From Folioceros fuciformis (lineage: Eukaryota): a stretch of DNA of 64,000 bases. The notes beneath the pieces were generated by a model. The model made no database searches. It was given only the letters and a program-made list of their open reading frames with translations, and had not been told where the DNA came from. The translations under genes were made by a program, and so were the position numbers. Below, in pieces: positions 11,292 through 50,261 of this stretch (the first letter of the stretch is position 1; the number at the start of each line of letters is the position of its first letter). The stretch spans positions 354,157-418,156 of the forward strand of contig JBNGIO010006304.1 in assembly GCA_049999805.1 (NCBI GenBank). Direction: 5' to 3'.

Positions 11292-12519
11292 CCGAGAAGG
11301 CTCGTCCGCTGTTCGCGGAGACACTGCCGAGGCCCACCTTCCTGTTCACACACTCAAGCCAATTTAGCTTTCCGATTACTGCAGGTCTACTATCTAACTC
11401 TCCCCACAACGGCATTCAAATCAACATCCTCCCTCCCTCCCTCCCTGTATCACTCAACTCACTCGTACACACTTAAACGCGCCTGACTGAAATCAAAGAT
11501 CACGGGAAAGTTTGAGTACAACTGTACAAGGTTACAGATCCAACTCACTAATATTCAAACTCTCTATCATATATATAATTCTTTGGTCACATCTTATTAG
11601 CTCTCATCTTATGGATGTATTTGAAATTAGCTTAATTTTAACCAGCAATCCTTCAAGCATTATCTATATCAAACATATATTCCTTCAATTTGCTATTCCT
11701 CTCTCATAGACTTGTTCAATAACATTGCCTTGCTGTAAAGTCCTACATGACCTCACATATAAATGAAACAACATGCTGACAGGTACACAATGGGCAAAAT
11801 CAAAGCAATATCTCACCTGTGATTGGATCTCTTAGTCTGTACCAAAACGGAAGCGAAGGCTTAATTTCACCTCCTTCGCTTGCAGGCTCATCGGTTCTTA
11901 AGACATGTCAATGAGAATAATTGTTAATAAGATGCAAAGACATGTACATACTTCAAAATACCAACTAGCAAAGTAATATAAGGGCTTCTTGTCAAAACTA
12001 GTAGGGTTTGACAACGCGAACCATATGAGTGAAGAAATAGCTTTAGATCAGATACCACAAAACAAAGATACTGTATGACAGGAATGACTTCAAATTATAC
12101 AAGATAAAACAAAGATCCGATATGACAAAACAAAGACACTTCGCATCAAACAAAGATAGGGTTTAGGGTAGAACACGTCGCACTCGTCAAGTCAAAGTAA
12201 AGGTATCATACACCTCAGTGTGAATAAAAATATCATGAGCGTCACATCATCATGACAAAGATGCTACACGACAAAACAAAAATGATGTTGACGGAACAAA
12301 AATCCTTCTAACGCGATAGATAGATATCAGTACGTCCAATCTGACAACTTTTGTGTCTCAAACGTATGATGAAAAGATTTGACCGTGCAACAAGAACTAG
12401 CTTCAACGTCACGAGAGGAACCCTACGAACCCTATAGCTATGCTGATTACCCTAATTGGATAATCGTGAAATTCACACAAGGGAAATAAGGGTGCCTAGA
12501 TTCCATCACACACGCGGAA

Positions 12520-13452
12520 CCATCGCTTTCCTCAACAAGGTTGCAAGAAGCCACTGTTCTCTAACAGAATAACCTTTTCCACCTCTGCAACTACCCTCAG
12601 GTATTGCGCATGGAAAACCATCACTCTCATGAACAAGCCTGCAAGAAACCATTCCATCCTAGCAACTACTCTGAGGTTTAGGGTTTAGCAAGTCATCTCT
12701 CTCCTAAACAAGGTTGCAAGAAACGATTCCACCCTAGCAACTACTCTTTTTTGCAGATGGGAAACTATTGCTCTCGTGAACAAGGTTGCAAGAAACCATA
12801 GCTCTCCGATACATACAGTAGCCTTATCACTCTCCTGAACAAGGTTGTCCATAAAGCATAGCTCTCTGATACATACAGTAACCTCATCCCTCTCCTAAAC
12901 AAGGGTGAAAGAAGCCATAGCTCTCCAATAGAGTACCCTTTTCCGACCTAGCAAGTACTCTCTCAAGTTTGCGAAAGACCATCGTTGTCTATCCTTTTTC
13001 AACTTGACAACACCACCTGAAAACTTGGCGACTACTCTGTCTCAGGTTTGCGAAAAACATCGGTTGTCTAGAACAAGGTGAACTACTCTTTTTCAACCTA
13101 ACAAGACCACCCTTTTCATGCTTAACAACCTACTATTCCATACTTGGCCAAGTCCCAAGCTTCATAGGTTACTCAAGAAGCCACTAACACATGACTGACA
13201 AACATACAAGTTTGGCAAAGTCCCAAGCTTCATAGGTTACTCAAGAAGCCACTGACACATGACTGACAAACATACAAGTTTGGCAACCGATACAAATCTT
13301 TCCAACTAGCAACTAGTAGGCATACAAGCGTACAAGTATGGAAACCCATAAGTTACTAAAGAAGCCACGGACACATGACTGACGAACATACAAGTTTGGT
13401 AACCAAGGCAAATCTTTCCGACTAGCAACTAGCAGGCGTGCAAGCGTACAGG
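12520..13452. repeat. Degenerate tandem repeat arrays, probably a transposon remnant
   Basis: The motif AACAAGGTTGCAAGAA(A/G)CCA recurs from 12535 to 12920. A second ~66-bp unit (AAGTCCCAAGCTTCATAGGTTACTCAAGAAGCCACT.ACACATGACTGACAAACATACAAGTTTGG) repeats from 13150 to 13400. Confidence 0.7.
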
Positions 13453-14164
13453 CTAGGAAACTGAGATAAGCCTTTCTGCCATAGCAGCAAAGTCAACCAA
13501 GGTGATGACGCAAGTGAGAAACACAGAGAGATGCCGCAAGTAGGTACGTATGTACCTCCATCTCTCGCGCTTCTCATTTGTCCGACCTGATAGAGCCCCA
13601 CGCTTCAAGTTTGTCCGACCCAAAATAGCCCCATCGACAGTACCTGACAGAGGCATCATGGGTTCTACCACGCAAAAGAGAGTACAGTACAACAACAACA
13701 ACAATACATGAAAAAGATGGCGCATCACAGTCTGAGCTCAGAGATCTTGCAATGCGATTGTGAAAGTAACGCCTTGCATAACGTTTAAGTACTACTTTGC
13801 ATAGAGAACCCTTGATTAGGGCAAAACCGATGAATCCTACGGCTTCTTAGGGTCTCATAGACAATCATCAACATAGTTAAGACAAATGCAATAATTCTAG
13901 AAGGTTACAAGAGTCATGACATTAAGCAAACTTAATTATTCTCTATGATTGAAAAAGAAATGGACAGTACCAAGCAAACTTTACTTATCCTTTTATCCTC
14001 TAAACAACCTTACATCTAAACACATGAGTATTCATCTTTGCTTACCCTTCGATCCGTTAAAGAACCTTGCATTTATATAGCTATTGATCTTCTTAAGCAT
14101 AGGAAAATAAAACAGGTTGAAGTGAAATCACAATGACCCATAGAAAAATAAAATAAAATAATAA

Positions 14165-14282
14165 TGAGCATTGTGAGAATCGAACTCACATCTTCAGGGT
14201 ATAGTAGGAGGATTCTATTTAACTACTATATTTCCTCATTACATAGAGGAGCCCTAATGTCGGACCACTAGACTAAATGCTC
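14165..14282 (-). ncRNA. tRNA-like RNA (118 nt) with a non-canonical, bifurcated anticodon arm
   Basis: Minus strand reads GAGCATT TA GTC-TAGTGGTCC-GAC A TTAGGG [insert] CCCTGA AGAT GTGAG-TTCGATT-CTCAC AATGCTC A. Acceptor stem and T-arm pair perfectly, A and B boxes are present, and T-runs follow downstream. Confidence 0.65.
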
Positions 14283-14807
14283 AATGCTATGTTAAAATCA
14301 GTGTTACCTATTAATATATATTATATTATATTTATGCTGAAAATGTTCTATATATTTGCTGAATAATAATTATTGATTAAAAATAGGTATATATATATAA
14401 ACAAGGTCGGAATTGGACTCGTGCCGTTAGGGGGCGTAGGATTAGGAGAAGTGAGCTCGGAGCAAAATGGAAGGGTTGTTGGCCCACGTCCCGGTTCCCG
14501 TTTCAGGCTCTGGTCTGTTTTGTTTGCTTCCCTCTCTCCTCTCTTCTGGTCTGGTCTGGTCTCGTGTCGTCTCCGGTGGCCTGGCCACACAGAGCGAGTT
14601 GAGGCCGTCAGTGCACCCGTAGCGCCAGGAATGCCCCGGGCGTCAGCAAGCTGTCCACGCCGCGGCCACAGCAACGATCGCTGCCCCGCCTCAGATCTGG
14701 CTCTTGGTTCCTCGGCGATCCGCGCTGCACCGCATTCCAGCTGACTTGGCTGGGATTTTGTGCCGCGAGGTGTGATCGAGGGAACCAATTGCGCGATTCC
14801 GCCGGCC

Positions 14808-17134
14808 ATGGCGAGGCGCTTCTGCCTTGTGTCGCTGCCGGTGCAGGGCTCCGCTAATGAGACGTGGAGCACGCTGCAGCACACCCTGTCCGCGATTGCC
14901 TTCGACACGCCCAACTACNNNNNNNNNNNNNNNNNNNNNNNNNNNNNNNNNNNNNNNNNNNNNNNNNNNNNNNNNNNNNNNNNNNNNNNNNNNNNNNNNN
15001 NNNNNNNNNNNNNNNNNNNNNNNNNNNNNNNNNNNNNNNNNNNNNNNNNNNNNNNNNNNNNNNNNNNNNNNNNNNNNNNNNNNNNNNNNNNNNNNNNNNN
15101 NNNNNNNNNNNNNNNNNNNNNNNNNNNNNNNNNNNNNNNNNNNNNNNNNNNNNNNNNNNNNNNNNNNNNNNNNNNNNNNNNNNNNNNNNNNNNNNNNNNN
15201 NNNNNNNNNNNNNNNNNNNNNNNNNNNNNNNNNNNNNNNNNNNNNNNNNNNNNNNNNNNNNNNNNNNNNNNNNNNNNNNNNNNNNNNNNNNNNNNNNNNN
15301 NNNNNNNNNNNNNNNNNNTTTTTTTGTGTGGAGCGTATGGGTTGGGGGTGCGAGCGGGGGAGAGGGTCGATGGATGGATGGATGGGTGGAAAGAGGAGGG
15401 AGGAGGCTGGAGGCTGATGCCGTCGTCGTCTTTCCTTGCGGCGCAGGCGAACTCGATGGTGGAGGGAGTCGCCCATAAACTGCGGCGTCAGATTGAGGAC
15501 TTCCAAAGACTGGACGCAGGTGCTGAGTCGACTGCCTTGACTGTCAATGGAGTCCCTATTGATACTTACATCACCGGGTTGGTAAACTTGCTAGCGATCT
15601 GGCATCCGTTGATCTGCTGTCTGGAGTGCTGTGTTGACGGGCCGGTTGGTGGGTTTCTCAGCTTCACATGGGATGAGGCCAAGTATCCGGTTGTGAGTCC
15701 GTTGAGAGAGATTGTGGACGCAATCCACAAGAATGTGGCAGAGCTCGAAGATGACATGAAGGTGATGGCCCGTCCAGGTTTGCTGCTCTTGATGACCTAC
15801 AGACTTGGGTGCACCAGTGTTCTGATTGGCTTCCTGTGCAAGCACAGGTCCGAGTCGCTGAGGCTAGTAGTGTGAAGAGCCAACTGAATGCCCTGAGTCG
15901 CAAGCAAACTGGCAGGTAGCTGGCGTATTTTCTCATCTGGACTGACCGTTGTGCAAATCTTGGACACTGCCAAGAGTCTGTGTGGTGTGCAAGTGCCTCA
16001 CTTTCCACTTGACATGGATGCAGTCTGCTCGTGCGGGACCTCGCAGCCTACATCAAGGCCAACGATGTTGTCCATTCTGAGAATCTCACCACGCTCTTGG
16101 TGATTGTCCCAAAGTTCTCTCAAAAGGAGTGGATAGCAAGTTACGAGACCTTATCCCAGTGGGTGGTACTGAACATCTTGAACTTTCAACTTGCTCGTTA
16201 TCAAAATCATCAGCCATTTGTACTGTATTGAAGATGACATCCGTTCTGCGATTCCTGGTGTTCCAGGTTCCTCGGTCATCGAAGCTGCTGTTGGAAGAAA
16301 ATGATTACGCTCTGTATACAGTGACGCTGTTTAAGAAAGTAGCTGAGGATTTCAAGGCTGCTTCCCGTGCCAAGGGCTTCCAAGTAAGCTCACCTTCCAT
16401 TGTCTCTCTGGTGTACTCAGGCCCAGCAAGTTTGTGTCAGTCACACTAACAAAAGGAGGTAGGTAGGTCCGCGAATATGCCCATGATCCAGAGGCCCAGG
16501 AGAAACAGTCAGCGGAGCTTGTTACCCTCACAAGAGCCCAAAAGGAGCTGCAGAGTTCGCTAAAAACTTGGTGTTATGCCAGCTTCGCAGAGGTGCAAAT
16601 TCTCAGCCTGTCAGCCTCTCGTCTGACGATGCCCTCAGGTCAGGGCAAATGTGTGATGTGTGAAACTGGCTCGTGAGTGCAGACTGTCAAGTGTTGGATG
16701 CACTTGCTTGCAATTAAACTTTTCGCCGAGAGTATACTTCGATATGGACTGCCACCAGCATTTGTGGTATGTCTCGCTTTTTGTCGCTTTGCATAAGCGA
16801 GCTGCACTCCCTGGACCATCAGACTTCCGAACTGATCATGAAACGTTTTTTTTATCTTACTTTGCAGGCGGCCGTTATAGCCCCAAATCCAAAAAATGAG
16901 AAGAAAGTCAGGCAACTTCTTGATCAGCTCTCAGGATCATCAGACAGGTGAGGTTCCTTCAATTCGATCTAACTTGGATCAGAGCTTCTGCTTGCAGCAG
17001 TCCCTAACGACGTGCCTTCTGCTGCTATCAGTTCACTCTGGAAAGGAGAATCAGAGGCAGCTCTGGCGGGATTGACTGGTGGGGAATCTGAAGTTTATCC
17101 TTACGTGTCACTAACCATGAACTTAGGTGGTTAG
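14808..17134 (+). CDS. VHA-C: V-type H+-ATPase subunit C, multi-exon, with a 400-N gap inside
   Basis: MARRFCLVSLPVQGSA...FDTPNY, FTWDEAKYP, ENLTTLLVIVPK, VPRSSKLL, ESILRYGLPP and the C-terminal YPYVSLTMNLGG*. Confidence 0.92.
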
Positions 17135-45307: not shown

Positions 45308-47452
45308 TTATGCAGGTTGTCTCGTGAGTGGCCTTGACCACTCCCCACTGCGAAGCCATGTTTGGACAGCATCACCAGATGCCAAGAGAAAATGGAGCGT
45401 GTCCCGCCCATCTTCTGACATGGTAGACTTCTCGGTGAAAGGAGATTTTCTCGCAGTCAAATAAGAGATTACTGCGTCTTTCTTTTTCTGCTCTGTGTCT
45501 ACCCATCGACCCCTCCCTGATCCAGTTTCTATCATAACTACTTTAGGCAGTTCTTGCTTCTCCTCGAGCACCTGAGACAGAGTGCGCATCCACCACTCAA
45601 CAGCACACTGGGATGCGCCCAGGGAGAGGTGGCGTAAATGCAGTCGCCACACTGCAGGTGCACGGGATTGAATATCTGCAAATACTCCCAGGTTCACTGA
45701 CAGCATAAGTAGATCTGACGCCCTAGCCTCAATATCCGTCACCCGACAAAAATCAACCATAGCATTGATGAACCTACGATAGGTCGCAGCTGGGTACCTC
45801 TGCGTTAACGAATGGAGCACAAGGTGAAGTTCTTTCTCCTCTGACCCCGGAGAAATCAATTTCTGCACTGTGTCGTGCAATTCCAGGTTACCCTTCTTGA
45901 AAATCCCGAAGACAGTACTCCGCTGCTCATCGTTCTCACAGAGAACCAAGATACTGAAAAGACTGCTCCACAGCAGATCATCTGGCTCACATCCACAGCT
46001 GATCATTTCATCAAAGAGCTCATTAACTCTCGCAAAATCCTTCGCTTGTCCATGAGCCTGGATTAGTGAGGTATATGTGACAACATCCCTGGAGAATCCA
46101 GACCGAATCATTCGTGAAAAAGCACTCATGGCCTTGTCCTTGCTGCCACGCTTAGCATACAAGTGCAGCATAGTCTTGTACGAGTACGCATTTGGTGGCA
46201 TCCCGAATTTTTGCATGTCATTGAAAATCTTTTCAGCTTGCTCCTCAGAACCATACTCCGCACAATGTTTGAGAACTGAGTTATGAACAACCGCATCACA
46301 ATCCCAGCCTTCCCGTTGCATTCGATGGAAAAGGTCTAGACAATCCTGAAATTGCCCACCTTTACCATAGGCATCAATCATAGAGCTAACGGTTACAGCA
46401 TTGGGCTTCAGACCAGAGGTGATCATCTCATTCATCACTCCTGCAGCTTCATCAGTTCTTCCTGCATCGCCATAGATCCGAATCAGAATATTATAGACAA
46501 CTGTGGTAGGCTTCACCCCTGAATTCCTCATCTCCTTGTAAGTCCTCTCAACGTCTGTGTACCTACCAGCGTTGCCCAACATATTCAAAATGGTACCATA
46601 TGTGACGATATCGAATTTCCAGCCAGCATCTCTGAGCTCATAGAAGAGAACAAGCGCTTGCTTTACATTACCCGCTTTCGCATACACGTCCAGGACGGAA
46701 CAATACGTCACGGCATCGGGAACACAGCCGGCATCATGCATCTTTTCGTACCATTCCAAAGCCTGTTCATGGCGATTGCACCTGCTCGCACAGCTTATCA
46801 AAGTGCTGTAAGTGATGTTATCAGGAGACATACCCTTCTGAATCATCTCCACCACCAAACCCTCTGCCAGGTCCCACTGCCGGCCTTTCCTCAGCAATTT
46901 CACCATGACATTGTAGGTGAAGACATTCAAGTCATACTCTTTGGATTCGGCCCACCTGAAAAAGGGCAAAGCTTTCTCCCACCTTCCCAGAGAATTCAAA
47001 ATGGTCACCAAGCTGCGTGCGCTCAAGGGAGTCCCCCACCCTTCCATAGCCAGAGCTACCCCTGCCTCTGTCTCATCGCAGCCCTTCAACCTCCCCAGGA
47101 TGGACGGTAAAACCGACAGAGGCCTTTCCACCTTTCCAGCCTCCACAGAGCCTACATTCCGGTCAGTCCCCTCCGAACCCTGTCCCCGTCTCCACCTATC
47201 CACCCCCACCGCATTCCTAGACACTCTTTGGCTGGAGAACTCCGAATGCAGCTTCCGCAACTGCTTGACCATGGAGGAGGAGCCTGAATCGCTGGATCCC
47301 GCCGTCTCATCGGGAGAAACCGTGGGTGCAGCATTTTCACTCAAGCAGCACACATAACGCCACTTGCATGCTCTCCTGGTGTCCGAGCACGACGTCGATG
47401 GGAGAGCGTGGCTTAAGCCAAGGAGCTGCGTCGAATGAGAGGACATAGCCAT
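45308..47452 (-). CDS. P-class PPR protein with C-terminal SMR domain (SVR7/ATP4-like), single exon
   Basis: Tandem 35-aa PPR motifs (YNVMVKLLRK, PDNITYSTLISCA, PDAVTYCSVLDVY). SMR-like region WRLHLRHLSLGA...IETGSG. Confidence 0.9.
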   Translation of the reverse strand: MAMSSHSTQLLGLSHALPSTSCSDTRRACKWRYVCCLSENAAPTVSPDETAGSSDSGSSSMVKQLRKLHSEFSSQRVSRNAVGVDRWRRGQGSEGTDRNVGSVEAGKVERPLSVLPSILGRLKGCDETEAGVALAMEGWGTPLSARSLVTILNSLGRWEKALPFFRWAESKEYDLNVFTYNVMVKLLRKGRQWDLAEGLVVEMIQKGMSPDNITYSTLISCASRCNRHEQALEWYEKMHDAGCVPDAVTYCSVLDVYAKAGNVKQALVLFYELRDAGWKFDIVTYGTILNMLGNAGRYTDVERTYKEMRNSGVKPTTVVYNILIRIYGDAGRTDEAAGVMNEMITSGLKPNAVTVSSMIDAYGKGGQFQDCLDLFHRMQREGWDCDAVVHNSVLKHCAEYGSEEQAEKIFNDMQKFGMPPNAYSYKTMLHLYAKRGSKDKAMSAFSRMIRSGFSRDVVTYTSLIQAHGQAKDFARVNELFDEMISCGCEPDDLLWSSLFSILVLCENDEQRSTVFGIFKKGNLELHDTVQKLISPGSEEKELHLVLHSLTQRYPAATYRRFINAMVDFCRVTDIEARASDLLMLSVNLGVFADIQSRAPAVWRLHLRHLSLGASQCAVEWWMRTLSQVLEEKQELPKVVMIETGSGRGRWVDTEQKKKDAVISYLTARKSPFTEKSTMSEDGRDTLHFLLASGDAVQTWLRSGEWSRPLTRQPA

Positions 47453-48266: not shown

Positions 48267-50261
48267 ATGGCCGGGGTGAAGCGTAAATCGCTTCTGGACG
48301 AAGAGGATGATGATCATAATGGTGTTGGGAACCAGGTTACCCTCAAAGTGAACAAGGTGTATGCTGAACGGTTTGAGCACAACAAGCGAAGAGAGGATTT
48401 GCATCGCCTGCAGGAGTTGCAGAAAAAGGGCATTGGTCTGTCGGACGGGGAAGATAGCAATGGATCGTCTGAGGGGGAGGAGGAGGATGAGGATGGGTTG
48501 TTGCCTGAGCGCGTGAATCTGCAGATCTTCGAGACTCTAGCTAAGATTAGGAAGAAGGACCCGTCGATTTACTCGTCAGATGCCAAGTTTTATGATGAAG
48601 AGGAAGATGGAGAGGAGTCACATGAGGAGGGGAAGGGTATCGAGAAGAAGAAAAAGCCGCTGTATCTGAAGGACGTGATTGCCAAGCAGCTTCTGGAAGA
48701 CGACGGACCGGACGCGAAGGAGGTGCCTGTCAAGCCAGGGCCCGGGAAGAGCTATGTTCAGGAGCAGCAAGAGTTGAAAAGAGCCTTCCTGGAAAGTGTG
48801 ACCAAGGCTGATGTCGACGATGCGGATGGCTTGTTTCTGGTAAGGAAGAAGACGAAGGAGGAGCTTGAGAAGGAGACAGAGGAGACTGTGGCAGAGGGTG
48901 ACGAGACGAGAAAGGATGTGGGGGCCGTTATCGAAGAGTATTTTGGTAATGACACAGACCTGGATGAGAACGAAAGATTTCTGAAGTCATATATCCAGAA
49001 CCAGGGTTGGATTGACCGAGAGAGTAGGAAGGAGCCATCGTTTGGTGATATTGATGTTGGTGAAGATGATGAGGAAGTAGAGAAGCAGGATAGGTTTGAG
49101 GCTGAGTACAATTTCAGATACCAGGATGAAGACGGGTTTCAGGTCCAGGGCTGTCCTCGCATATTGGCAGGGTCTGTGAGGAAGAAACCTGACCAAAGGA
49201 AAAAGCAAAGACTAAGCAAGCAGGAGAGGCTGACAGAACAGGAGAGGGCCAGACAGGAAGAGGTGAAACGTTTGAAGAACGTAAAGAGGAATGAACTCTT
49301 GGAAAAGCTTGAGCAGATCAGAAGCATCGCTGGTGCTGACGAGGAAGCCTTAGCTGCTTTGGGCGAGGATGATCTAGAGGAGGATTTCAATCCAGATGAG
49401 TATGACAAGAAGATGGCTGAGGCTTTTGGTGATGCCTACTATGGTGGCCACGATGTTGATGACAGATTCAATAAGGATGATGCTGATGATTTTGATGAAA
49501 TGGACGACATGGAGAAACCTGATTTTGAGGCTGAAGATGAGCTGTTGGGACTGCCCGAGGGGTGGGACAGTGGGGCCAAGACTGGCTTTTCAGCTGTCTA
49601 CGCAAAGCAAAAGAAAGTTGACATTGATGGCACAGCTTCTTCCGCAGGGGAGAAGAAGACCTTGAAAATGTCTCTCAAGGACAAGATGGAGTTTGAAAAG
49701 AAAATGGAAGAGTACTACAAGCTGGACTATGAAGACGTGGTGGGGGATTTACCAACGAGGTTCAAGTACACGAAGGTTAAACGCAATCTGTATGGCTTGA
49801 GAACTAAGGATATCTTAAATACAGATGACCAGGACCTAAATCAATATGTGTCTCTTAAGAAGCTTGCCCCTTATCGGACTGAAGAGTGGAAGGTTCCCCG
49901 ACATCTTCGCCAACAACGTTTTAGTAGGAAGGACCGGGAAAAGAGATCTTTGGATGTTGTCCCGAGCGACAGCAGTAGCGCCAAAGAGCTGAAGTCCAAT
50001 GCTGATGCGCATGGGGCTCCAGCAAGTACTAGTACAGGTATGGGGTTAGATAGCACTGAATCGGTGGCAACCAAGGCGGAGAAGGGAAGCCAACCGAATG
50101 GCAAAATAGCTGAGCAAGGCAATGAAATTATTTCCAAGAGCAAGAAAAAGAGGAGGAGACAGAAAGGTCCCCAGCTCCCCATGTCTCGGTTACTAGCATA
50201 TAGAGGGATCCAACCCCCTCCGAAAAAGCAGAAGAAGCAAAAGGTTGCTCCATCCAATTGA
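48267..50261 (+). CDS. KRI1: KRI1 homolog (40S ribosome biogenesis, KRR1-interacting), single exon
   Basis: YAERFEHNKRREDL, FEAEYNFRY, EEVKRLKNVKR, YYKLDYEDVVGDLPTRFKY and LNQYVSLKKLAPYR. Confidence 0.92.
   Translation: MAGVKRKSLLDEEDDDHNGVGNQVTLKVNKVYAERFEHNKRREDLHRLQELQKKGIGLSDGEDSNGSSEGEEEDEDGLLPERVNLQIFETLAKIRKKDPSIYSSDAKFYDEEEDGEESHEEGKGIEKKKKPLYLKDVIAKQLLEDDGPDAKEVPVKPGPGKSYVQEQQELKRAFLESVTKADVDDADGLFLVRKKTKEELEKETEETVAEGDETRKDVGAVIEEYFGNDTDLDENERFLKSYIQNQGWIDRESRKEPSFGDIDVGEDDEEVEKQDRFEAEYNFRYQDEDGFQVQGCPRILAGSVRKKPDQRKKQRLSKQERLTEQERARQEEVKRLKNVKRNELLEKLEQIRSIAGADEEALAALGEDDLEEDFNPDEYDKKMAEAFGDAYYGGHDVDDRFNKDDADDFDEMDDMEKPDFEAEDELLGLPEGWDSGAKTGFSAVYAKQKKVDIDGTASSAGEKKTLKMSLKDKMEFEKKMEEYYKLDYEDVVGDLPTRFKYTKVKRNLYGLRTKDILNTDDQDLNQYVSLKKLAPYRTEEWKVPRHLRQQRFSRKDREKRSLDVVPSDSSSAKELKSNADAHGAPASTSTGMGLDSTESVATKAEKGSQPNGKIAEQGNEIISKSKKKRRRQKGPQLPMSRLLAYRGIQPPPKKQKKQKVAPSN

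What the first reader, a model, noticed from the sequence alone, without database searches (positions are those of the whole stretch)
14140..14330. tRNA-like Pol III gene with the anticodon loop replaced by a three-way junction
Seen in sequence (minus strand, 14282 to 14165): perfect 7-bp acceptor stem GAGCATT/AATGCTC plus discriminator A, D-arm GTC/GAC with the GG, perfect T-arm GTGAG-TTCGATT-CTCAC, and a 6-bp anticodon-position stem TTAGGG/CCCTGA. Instead of a 7-nt loop, that stem encloses two hairpins: TCCTC-TATGTAAT-GAGGA and TATAGTAG-(15 nt)-CTACTATA. Upstream is AT/TATA-rich and T-runs follow the 3' end. No register gives a canonical U33/purine-37 loop, so it is not an ordinary intron-containing tRNA (land-plant nuclear tRNA introns are known for Tyr and elongator Met). 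The 5' part resembles plant tRNA-Pro as I recall it (GGGCATTTGGTCTAGTGG) but with stem-preserving changes. Inference: a structure-conserved, non-decoding tRNA-like ncRNA, or the head of a tRNA-derived repeat family.
Basis: partly seen in the sequence, partly recalled or inferred. Interest (0 to 1): 0.75.

Follow-up and report, generated by a model that had tools for sequence, protein, structure and literature searches.

The report
Diverged intron-containing tRNA gene copy
The flagged element is a plant nuclear tRNA gene interrupted by a 45-base intron at the usual place, a diverged duplicate that has lost the standard codon-reading loop, so it is most likely a decaying gene copy and not a new kind of RNA.

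Summary
The claim that no splice register gives both U33 and a purine at 37 also holds: 0 of 16 registers.

The element is still not an anticodon-less scaffold. It is the only such call in the 64-kb window, against 0 calls in 30 shuffled windows.

The first "hairpin" is the anticodon pairing with the intron, a common feature of eukaryotic pre-tRNAs. The second is an intron-internal hairpin.

Contigs from the source sample hold one paralogue, about 81% identical and carrying the same intron. As listed, its loop reads CUCUCA, which is canonical: U33, a Glu-type anticodon and A37. Its D loop is canonical too. The second hairpin is destroyed in the paralogue with no compensating changes, so the three-way junction is not conserved.

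Best reading: a diverged, probably decaying duplicate within a small family of intron-containing tRNA genes. No RNA data or related genomes were available, so expression and splicing are untested. Interest is low to moderate.

The parts
14165..14282 (-). Whole tRNA-type gene: two exons plus a 45-nt intron, 118 nt including the discriminator A. ARAGORN reports 14164-14283 because it adds an eighth acceptor pair.
   Evidence: Sequence. ARAGORN -i calls it. It is the only call in the window, and there are 0 calls in 30 shuffled windows.
14276..14282 (-). Acceptor stem, 5' strand GAGCATT.
   Evidence: It pairs perfectly with 14166-14172.
14258..14275 (-). Positions 8-25: the A-box region TAGTCTAGTGG and the D arm, GTC/GAC plus a T-C mismatch. 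The D loop ends in CC where the paralogue has AG.
   Evidence: substitutions at 14262 and 14263.
14252..14257 (-). Anticodon stem, 5' strand TTAGGG. This makes 6 bp, or 5 bp plus a U-A pair at positions 26 and 44. Either way there is one nucleotide more than a standard cloverleaf allows.
14246..14251 (-). 5' half of the anticodon loop, CTCCTC: U33, anticodon CCU in ARAGORN's register, and C at position 37.
   Evidence: The paralogue reads CTCTCA here, from the indels at 14245 and 14248.
14201..14245 (-). 45-nt intron at the canonical 37/38 site. Its GAGGA (14233-14237) pairs with loop residues 33-37. Its TATAGTAG (14223-14230) pairs with CTACTAT (14201-14207) plus exon base A38.
   Evidence: In the paralogue it differs by 11 substitutions and 5 gap letters.
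14190..14200 (-). A38, the anticodon stem 3' strand CCCTGA, and the variable loop AGAT.
14173..14189 (-). T arm GTGAG-TTCGATT-CTCAC, which contains the B box.
   Evidence: The Rfam tmRNA model matches this 3' end as a fragment at 12.3 bits.
14165..14172 (-). Acceptor stem 3' strand AATGCTC plus the discriminator A.
14141..14164 (-). 3' trailer with T4, T4 and T5 runs, which look like Pol III terminators.
   Evidence: The terminator role rests on established knowledge, as restated in PMC13578239, section 20.
14283..14345 (-). AT-rich 5' flank with TATA-like runs. The first 21 nt (14283-14303) are also shared with the paralogue contig.
   Evidence: alignment 14167-14303.

Best explanation
This is a nuclear, Pol III-type tRNA gene on the minus strand, interrupted by a 45-nt intron at the canonical site between positions 37 and 38. 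It belongs to a small family of at least two copies in this genome. As listed, the other copy has a canonical anticodon-loop half: U33, a Glu-type anticodon (CUC) and A37.

The expected pathway is inferred and not shown. [quoted passage not shown] Transcription would start near 14282 and stop in the T runs. RNase P and RNase Z would trim the ends. The anticodon region would pair with the intron, and the tRNA splicing endonuclease, which measures distance from the tRNA body, would cut after position 37 and before 38.

The window copy differs from its sister at the positions that matter for a working tRNA:
- loop CUCCUC instead of CUCUCA, so no purine at 37;
- D-loop positions 21 and 22 are CC instead of AG.

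It is therefore most likely a diverged duplicate that no longer decodes: a young pseudogene, or at best a poorly functional tRNA. The 'three-way junction' is the ordinary consequence of a long intron: one helix with the anticodon and one hairpin inside the intron.
For: It is the only call in the 64-kb window, and there are 0 calls in 30 block-shuffled windows.

2. Loop residues 33-37 (UCCUC) pair with intron GAGGA. This is the anticodon-intron duplex seen in many eukaryotic pre-tRNAs (PMC4090602, section 5, read). Canonical eukaryotic tRNA introns run from 6 to 133 nt (same section), so 45 nt is within range.

3. One other contig from run X2 (884 nt, depth 12.1 against 7.65 for the source contig) aligns to 14167-14303 with 20 substitutions and 7 gap letters, about 81% identity. 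It covers the exons, the intron and 21 nt upstream.

4. The listed differences turn the loop half into CUCUCA and the D loop/stem into the canonical ...GGTA GGAC. The intron differs by 11 substitutions and 5 gap letters in 45 nt. In the itemised part of the exons, positions 12-37 and 83-84, only the two D-loop bases and the three loop positions differ.

5. Hairpin 2 is not kept in the paralogue: 5 of 8 pairs are broken or deleted and none is compensated (derived by hand).

6. The A box, B box, AT-rich upstream region and T-run terminators are all present (the motifs are as described in PMC13578239, section 20).

7. Predicted intron-containing tRNA genes outside Tyr and Met are reported in plant genomes. 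Of 1826 such genes in 50 species, 86.87% are Met or Tyr and the rest cover all 20 amino acids (PMC12652284, passages read).

8. In a run that behaves like bisulfite data (X3), all 3 CG sites between 14026 and 14211 are left unconverted, including the B-box CpG, while CHH sites are converted. This is a weak hint that the locus is methylated.
Against: 1. All four stems of this copy are perfect where they pair (7, 3, 6 and 5 bp). The anticodon-intron helix is also perfect at 5 bp. One of its pairs differs from the paralogue on both sides, U36-A in this copy against C36-G there. That could mean this copy is still under structural constraint.

2. Both copies share an extra nucleotide at the junction of the D and anticodon stems, or equivalently a 6-bp anticodon stem. 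The whole family is therefore slightly non-canonical, and the paralogue may not be a standard tRNA either.

3. The paralogue is only partly known. Of its 20 substitutions, 13 are itemised. One further G>A is counted in the run summary but not placed. If it lies in the loop, the anticodon would be UUC (still Glu) or CUU (Lys) instead of CUC; U33 and A37 hold in every case.

4. In the predicted fold the 3' splice site sits inside the base of an 8-bp helix and not in a single-stranded bulge. C32 also cannot pair with the intron base 3 nt before the 3' site.

5. There is no expression or splicing evidence either way.

6. Rfam's tRNA model does not report the element, and ARAGORN without the intron option misses it.
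Confidence: 0.58

Rival explanations
1. It is a selected, non-decoding tRNA-like RNA. Pol III transcribes it, RNase P and RNase Z trim it, and the branched domain in place of the anticodon loop is the functional part or is displayed by the tRNA scaffold.
For: No register gives U33 plus a purine at 37. All helices are perfect, and the anticodon arm plus insert folds better than 200 of 200 shuffles. One pair of hairpin 1 differs from the paralogue on both sides while staying paired.
Against: Hairpin 2 is not conserved in the only relative available: 5 of 8 pairs are lost and none is compensated. That relative has a canonical anticodon-loop half, so the ancestral state is an ordinary intron-containing tRNA. 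This copy has also lost the canonical D-loop residues 21 and 22. CG sites appear methylated. One compensated pair between two sequences is anecdotal.
Confidence: 0.17
2. It is a working decoding tRNA with an unusual loop: tRNA-Arg(CCU), as ARAGORN names it, or a Glu-type body with a shifted anticodon. After splicing it carries a pyrimidine at position 37.
For: ARAGORN calls it at its default threshold with a canonical-position intron. The Pol III signals are intact and so are the stems.
Against: C37 in place of a purine, C21 and C22 in the D arm, and an extra nucleotide at position 26. The 3' splice site is buried in a helix. Among the metagenomic tRNAs compared, the body lies closest to a tRNA-Glu (54 of 73 against 51-52 for the next isotypes, not discriminating; no Arg was in that set). 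The sister copy reads as Glu-type, so a CCU anticodon on this body would risk misreading AGG codons. From recalled general knowledge, tRNAs that read A-starting codons normally need a modified A37.
Confidence: 0.12
3. It is the head of a tRNA-derived SINE or MITE family.
For: It has a tRNA-like 5' part with A and B boxes, AT-rich flanks, and at least one related copy.
Against: Only 1 other contig matches at 80% likeness or more in the contigs of three DNA runs, and there is no second copy in the window. The unit ends with the complementary acceptor strand, as a complete tRNA does, with no tRNA-unrelated body or tail. Similarity to the paralogue extends 21 nt upstream of +1, which points to DNA-level duplication and not retroposition. 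Caveat: contigs can drop copies.
Confidence: 0.03
4. The insert is a box C/D snoRNA housed in a tRNA intron, as in archaeal tRNA-Trp.
For: The Rfam snoZ105 model aligns across 14194-14247 with a C-box-like AUGAGGA, a CUGA, and a 9-nt match to the model's guide region.
Against: The score is 21 bits against a gathering score of 45, with E 0.6. The CUGA is the 3' strand of the anticodon stem, outside the intron. The putative guide segment is changed in the paralogue: a substitution at 14208, a deletion at 14206 and substitutions at 14202-14203.
Confidence: 0.02

Closest known systems
Eukaryotic nuclear pre-tRNAs with a canonical 37/38 intron (plant tRNA-Tyr and elongator tRNA-Met; yeast intron-containing tRNAs)
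   Same: The intron sits directly after position 37. The anticodon and its neighbours pair with the intron. Internal A and B boxes, an AT-rich upstream region and an oligo-T terminator are present. The intron length of 45 nt lies within the 6-133 nt reported for eukaryotes (PMC4090602, section 5).
   Different: The isotype is not Tyr or Met, the only intron-bearing isotypes the 2026 review gives for land plants (PMC13578239, section 9). The intron is far longer than the roughly 12 nt typical of plants (PMC12652284). The spliced loop would carry C37. There is one extra nucleotide at the junction of the D and anticodon stems. The 3' splice site is predicted to lie inside a helix.
tRNA pseudogenes and diverged duplicates within tRNA gene families
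   Same: It is one of several related copies. It departs from its sister at functionally critical positions, the anticodon loop and D-loop residues 21 and 22, while keeping the overall cloverleaf and promoter.
   Different: All stems remain perfect, and the anticodon-intron helix is intact with one doubly changed pair. Decay, if that is what this is, is recent or incomplete.
tRNA-derived SINEs of plants
   Same: tRNA-like 5' region with Pol III boxes.
   Different: It is a complete cloverleaf closed by the 3' acceptor strand, with no unrelated body or tail. It is low copy.
Non-decoding tRNA-like RNAs: plant mitochondrial t-elements, mascRNA-type tRNA mimics, phage and bacterial YrlA-type RNAs
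   Same: tRNA-shaped and lacking a standard anticodon loop.
   Different: Here the non-standard loop is explained by a homologous intron in a sister gene that has a canonical loop. The element is divergently oriented to the next gene, so it does not punctuate a longer transcript. The families named here are recalled or come from earlier notes of this scan. I did not test them.

Membership tests
Intron-containing nuclear tRNA gene (canonical 37/38 intron) | Cloverleaf with acceptor, D and T arms that a tRNA finder detects | tested here: met
   ARAGORN -i calls it, with 0 calls in 30 shuffled windows. The drawn cloverleaf has an eighth acceptor pair and no nucleotide 26, so it is slightly irregular. 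ARAGORN without -i and Rfam at gathering score miss it.
Intron-containing nuclear tRNA gene (canonical 37/38 intron) | Intron located immediately 3' of position 37 | tested here: met
   ARAGORN's register puts the 45-nt intron between loop position 37 and position 38.
Intron-containing nuclear tRNA gene (canonical 37/38 intron) | After splicing, a 7-nt anticodon loop with U33 and a purine at 37 | tested here: not met
   0 of 16 registers give both. The canonical register gives CUCCUCA, with C37. The paralogue's listed loop half, CUCUCA, does meet this feature.
Intron-containing nuclear tRNA gene (canonical 37/38 intron) | [quoted passage not shown] | tested here: inconclusive
   The duplex UCCUC/GAGGA is present and the 5' site opens into an 8-nt loop. 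The 3' site lies between the last two pairs of an 8-bp helix. According to PMC4090602, section 5, such local features are common but not strictly required.
Intron-containing nuclear tRNA gene (canonical 37/38 intron) | Pol III signals: A box, B box, upstream AT-rich or TATA-like region, oligo-T terminator | tested here: met
   Read directly from the sequence, using the motifs described in PMC13578239, section 20. The CAA motif at -10 to -3 is absent.
Intron-containing nuclear tRNA gene (canonical 37/38 intron) | A spliced, CCA-tailed product exists | not testable with these tools
   No RNA holder is listed. The one run guessed to be RNA covers only 14460-14499.
tRNA-derived SINE | Many dispersed copies with a tRNA-unrelated body, a tail and target-site duplications | tested here: not met
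   One other matching contig in the contigs of three DNA runs. The halves are unique in the window. The unit ends as a complete tRNA.
Box C/D snoRNA (Rfam snoZ105, RF00145) | Reaches the family's gathering score, with C and D boxes inside the unit | tested here: not met
   21 bits against 45, E 0.6. The D-like CUGA belongs to the anticodon stem.
   In the one paralogue, hairpin 1 keeps 4 of 5 pairs (one changed on both sides, one on one side). Hairpin 2 loses 5 of 8 pairs with none compensated (derived by hand). This rests on a single relative whose sequence is only partly itemised.

The most novel reading that the evidence does not exclude
This is a land-plant-grade streptophyte, a grouping in which reviews report nuclear tRNA introns only in Tyr and elongator Met. 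It nevertheless carries a lineage-specific family of Glu-type tRNA genes with a long (45-nt) intron and an anticodon stem one pair longer than standard. In one member the anticodon loop has changed to a non-decoding CUCCUC, while the intron changed in step to keep the anticodon-intron helix. That would make this copy a tRNA gene caught turning into a non-decoding, Pol III-made tRNA-like RNA, for example a source of small RNAs or a chromatin boundary element, and not simply a dead copy.
Probability: 0.12. Interest if true: 0.55.

Novelty: new member of a known kind. Interest (0 to 1): 0.27.

Why it matters
If the main reading is right, this is routine annotation: an intron-containing tRNA gene copy that default ARAGORN and Rfam settings miss, and that should be labelled a probable pseudogene.

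Two points give it modest wider interest:
- Recent surveys say land plants keep nuclear tRNA introns essentially only in tRNA-Tyr and elongator tRNA-Met (PMC13578239, section 9). The best named protein matches of this window are all land plants. A Glu-type family with a 45-nt intron would therefore be a lineage-specific exception worth listing once the whole genome can be scanned.
- The pair of copies shows how a long intron evolves fast while its pairing with the anticodon is kept.

Tried and rejected
- ARAGORN at default settings and Rfam at gathering scores found nothing in the window. Rfam in E-value mode gave only sub-threshold rows. I rejected the snoZ105 reading because of its score, the position of the D box, and the lack of conservation in the paralogue.
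- No whole genome is held for this window, so family size and the standard tRNA-Glu and tRNA-Arg genes could not be surveyed.
- Earlier findings of this scan gave nothing for this place or sequence, and only unrelated phage, archaeal or algal cases by keyword.
- In the sequencing-run search, no RNA holder is listed. Only the source sample's DNA runs hold the stretch.
- The run guessed to be RNA (X4) laid only on a 40-nt repeat at 14460-14499 and not on the element. This says nothing about expression.
- A metagenome scan with the 5' 20-mer gave 0 hits.
114 were usable; 3 were dropped because the contig end cut them.
  - ARAGORN names 71 of the 114 tRNA-Ala (37 CGC, 34 TGC) and 9 Glu, the rest other isotypes, with no call for 15. 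Their isotype mix and sources look mostly archaeal or otherwise unrelated, which is my impression only.
  - By eye in the listing, none has this acceptor stem. They therefore give no orthologues and no usable isotype assignment.
- An archaeal-type bulge-helix-bulge at the splice sites was looked for by hand. The intron's last six bases cannot pair with loop positions 32-35.
- Supplementary tables of PMC12652284 and the appendix figures of PMC13578239 could not be opened. They may list which isotypes carry introns in which species, which would bear on how unusual a Glu-type intron is.
Full report
**1. What is there**

- a perfect 7-bp acceptor stem, GAGCATT/AATGCTC, followed by A;
- a D arm with GTC/GAC and the GG dinucleotide;
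- a perfect T arm, GTGAG-TTCGATT-CTCAC;
- a 6-bp stem, TTAGGG/CCCTGA, enclosing 52 nt.

Those 52 nt fold into two hairpins, TCCTC-(8 nt)-GAGGA and TATAGTAG-(15 nt)-CTACTATA. The 64-nt arm folds into this three-way junction as its minimum-energy structure: -17.9 kcal/mol, z -2.58, and 0 of 200 shuffles fold as well.

The whole 119 nt has z -3.26, with 2 of 200 shuffles as good, although its MFE pairs the D region differently.

The 5' flank is AT-rich with TATA-like runs. The 3' flank has T4, T4 and T5 runs starting 7 nt downstream. Both halves are unique in the window.

**2. What the standard tools say**

ARAGORN as served, which does not allow introns, finds no tRNA in the window. Rfam at gathering thresholds finds nothing either.

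In E-value mode the only rows over the element are:
- a fragmentary match of the tmRNA model to the T arm and acceptor end (12.3 bits);
- a sub-threshold snoZ105 row (21 bits against a gathering score of 45, E 0.6).

ARAGORN with introns allowed, run in the script box, calls one gene: 75 nt plus a 45-nt intron at the canonical site directly after loop position 37. It names it tRNA-Arg(CCT).

Run over the whole window with introns of 0-120 nt, this is the only call. Thirty block-shuffled copies of the window give no call. The tRNA call is therefore far beyond chance.

ARAGORN's drawing is slightly irregular. It has an eighth acceptor pair, formed by base -1 with A73, and no nucleotide 26. Put another way, there is one nucleotide too many between the D stem and the anticodon stem. 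The same anomaly can be described as a 6-bp anticodon stem with a 4-nt variable loop.

**3. The loop**

I listed every way of removing one intron for both possible anticodon-stem registers.

The canonical register leaves CUCCUCA: U33, anticodon CCU, C37 and A38.

**4. Reinterpreting the two hairpins**

Hairpin 1 is loop residues 33-37 (UCCUC) pairing with intron bases 9-13 (GAGGA). It is an anticodon-intron duplex. The 5' splice site opens into its 8-nt loop.

Yoshihisa's review (PMC4090602, section 5, read) states the following:
- eukaryotic canonical introns are 6-133 nt long;
- the endonuclease finds its sites by measuring from the tRNA body;
- the loop-intron duplex is common but not required.

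Hairpin 2 lies within the intron, apart from its last pair, which uses exon base A38. In the predicted fold the 3' splice site therefore sits between the last two pairs of a helix, which is atypical.

I found no archaeal-type bulge-helix-bulge by hand.

**5. A paralogue**

No genome is held for this window, and two metagenome scans gave no orthologue. Laying the Logan contigs of the source sample's runs on 13950-14550 at 80% likeness did produce one.

Besides the source contigs, one other contig from run X2 aligns to 14167-14303. It is 884 nt long, at depth 12.1 against 7.65 for the source contig. It covers the whole gene, intron included, plus 21 nt upstream, where the contig ends. The alignment has 20 substitutions and 7 gap letters, about 81% identity.

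Thirteen substitutions and all six indel events are itemised. Translated to the gene strand, they show four things.

(a) D-loop positions 20 and 21 in my straight count from the 5' end (standard tRNA positions 21 and 22) are AG in the paralogue and CC here. This gives the paralogue the canonical A21 and a fourth D-stem pair.

(b) One C of the loop is missing and an A is inserted after position 37. The paralogue's loop half therefore reads CUCUCA: U33, anticodon CUC (Glu) and A37.

(c) The intron carries 11 substitutions and 5 gap letters in 45 nt.

(d) The two hairpins fare differently:
- In hairpin 1 the paralogue keeps 4 of 5 pairs. One is changed on both sides (U36-A here, C36-G there) and one on one side.
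- In hairpin 2, 5 of 8 pairs are broken or deleted and none is compensated.

Caveats on the paralogue:
- Seven substitutions are not itemised. Most are probably within about 36 nt of the alignment ends.
- The run summary counts one more G>A than the table shows. If that one lies in the loop, the anticodon would be UUC (still Glu) or CUU (Lys). U33 and A37 hold in every case.
- The contig comes from the same sample as the window. It is a second locus of the same genome, or less likely of a co-sampled relative, and so is not independent support from another species.

**6. Copy number**

Only this one extra contig matches in the contigs of three DNA runs, and nothing else in the window does. Contigs can drop copies, so this is a lower bound, but it does not look like a SINE family.

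The similarity also begins upstream of +1 and stops at the gene's 3' end. That fits DNA-level duplication of a gene and not retroposition.

**7. What organism**

The window is a gene-dense nuclear region at roughly 50% GC. It encodes a PPR-SMR protein, KRI1, a dirigent-like protein, a GMC oxidoreductase and other plant-type proteins; apart from the two searched, I named these by eye from the ORF translations.

The best named matches of two of its proteins are all land plants:
- PPR-SMR: a moss at 38% and a lycophyte at 37%.
- KRI1: a lycophyte at 47%, liverworts at 47-49%, and a conifer at 52% over part of the length.

The best unnamed matches (59% and 57%) both come from contigs of the same length, 7145 nt, possibly one contig. 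If so, a fairly distant relative keeps these two genes adjacent.

The source therefore looks like a land-plant-grade streptophyte that is poorly represented among named proteins. I cannot place it more precisely.

**8. Context from the literature**

A 2026 review (PMC13578239, section 9, read) states that land plants and some streptophyte algae keep nuclear tRNA introns only in tRNA-Tyr and elongator tRNA-Met, always at 37/38. Other streptophyte and green algae reach 34-61% intron-containing genes.

A 50-species survey (PMC12652284, passages read) found 1826 predicted intron-containing tRNA genes. Of these, 86.87% are Met or Tyr and the rest are spread over all 20 amino acids. Intron lengths run from 3 to 261 bp with a peak at 12.

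Sporadic intron-bearing genes of other isotypes are therefore already reported in plant genomes, but a 45-nt intron is long for a plant. I could not open the supplements that list them by species.

**9. Surroundings**

The gene lies in about 3 kb without convincing ORFs. It is divergently oriented to a gene on the plus strand that begins beyond 14.7 kb, which I read by eye as resembling a V-ATPase subunit C. Part of that region is masked by N. The element therefore does not punctuate a longer transcript.

Run X3 behaves like bisulfite data, with G>A at nearly every plus-strand G. Between 14026 and 14211, all 3 CG sites and 1 of 2 CHG sites are left unconverted; one of the CG sites is the B-box CpG at 14182. 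Of 28 CHH sites, 26 are listed as converted. The 2 unlisted sites lie in or next to a stretch the tool skipped.

This hints at CG methylation over the locus. From recollection, not from any call, that is the state reported for silent tRNA genes in Arabidopsis. It rests on one contig and an inferred library type, so it is weak.

**10. Verdict**

The element is an intron-containing, Pol III-type tRNA gene belonging to a small Glu-type family. The three-way junction is an anticodon-intron helix plus an intron hairpin that is not conserved.

This copy has lost the canonical loop and D-loop residues that its sister retains. It is most likely a young pseudogene or a poorly functional duplicate (confidence about 0.58).

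Three things keep a functional reading alive, either as a non-decoding tRNA-like RNA (about 0.17) or as an odd decoding tRNA (about 0.12):
- its stems are perfect;
- one pair of the anticodon-intron helix is compensated;
- both copies share the extra nucleotide.

Expression, splicing and conservation in other species could not be tested with the tools available.

Noticed in passing
window 14026-14211 (run X3): Run X3 shows G>A at nearly every plus-strand G, as bisulfite-converted DNA would. All 3 CG sites (14051, 14056 and 14182, the last being the B-box CpG) and the CHG site at 14197 are not listed as converted, while CHH sites are. This suggests CG methylation over the tRNA gene and its 3' flank.
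   Followed up: partly
window 14460-14499: A 40-nt GC-rich piece upstream of the tRNA gene recurs, with 7 differences, in other contigs of runs X1 and X2. It also occurs in a 1945-nt contig of the run guessed to be RNA (X4, depth 24.5). It is a short repeated or conserved motif of unknown nature.
   Followed up: no
window 14920-15480 and about 2520-2535: Runs of N mask part of the region between the tRNA gene and the next plus-strand gene, and a short piece of the dihydrolipoamide acyltransferase-like ORF. Source contigs run into the first stretch, so it is masked sequence and not an assembly gap.
   Followed up: no
window 45311-47452 (-) and 48267-50258 (+): The neighbouring PPR-SMR and KRI1 genes each have their best database match (59% and 57% identity) on an unnamed contig of the same length, 7145 nt, possibly one contig. 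If so, a distant relative keeps this gene pair adjacent. Both genes are single uninterrupted ORFs here, of 714 and 664 aa.
   Followed up: no
window 12500-12950: Overlapping short ORFs on the minus strand show repeated peptide-like motifs, which suggests a tandem or dispersed DNA repeat in the gene-poor stretch downstream of the tRNA gene.
   Followed up: no
L001:185-293 and L066:5044-5152 (metagenome loci): Each holds a truncated 5' part of a tRNA-Ala(CGC)-like gene, followed about 25 nt later by a complete copy. This is the pattern an element integrated into a tRNA gene leaves behind. L105 holds a tRNA-Ala(TGC) with a 47-nt intron. L024, L052, L060 and L065 hold other tRNAs with long inserts. 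All are unrelated to the window's gene.
   Followed up: no
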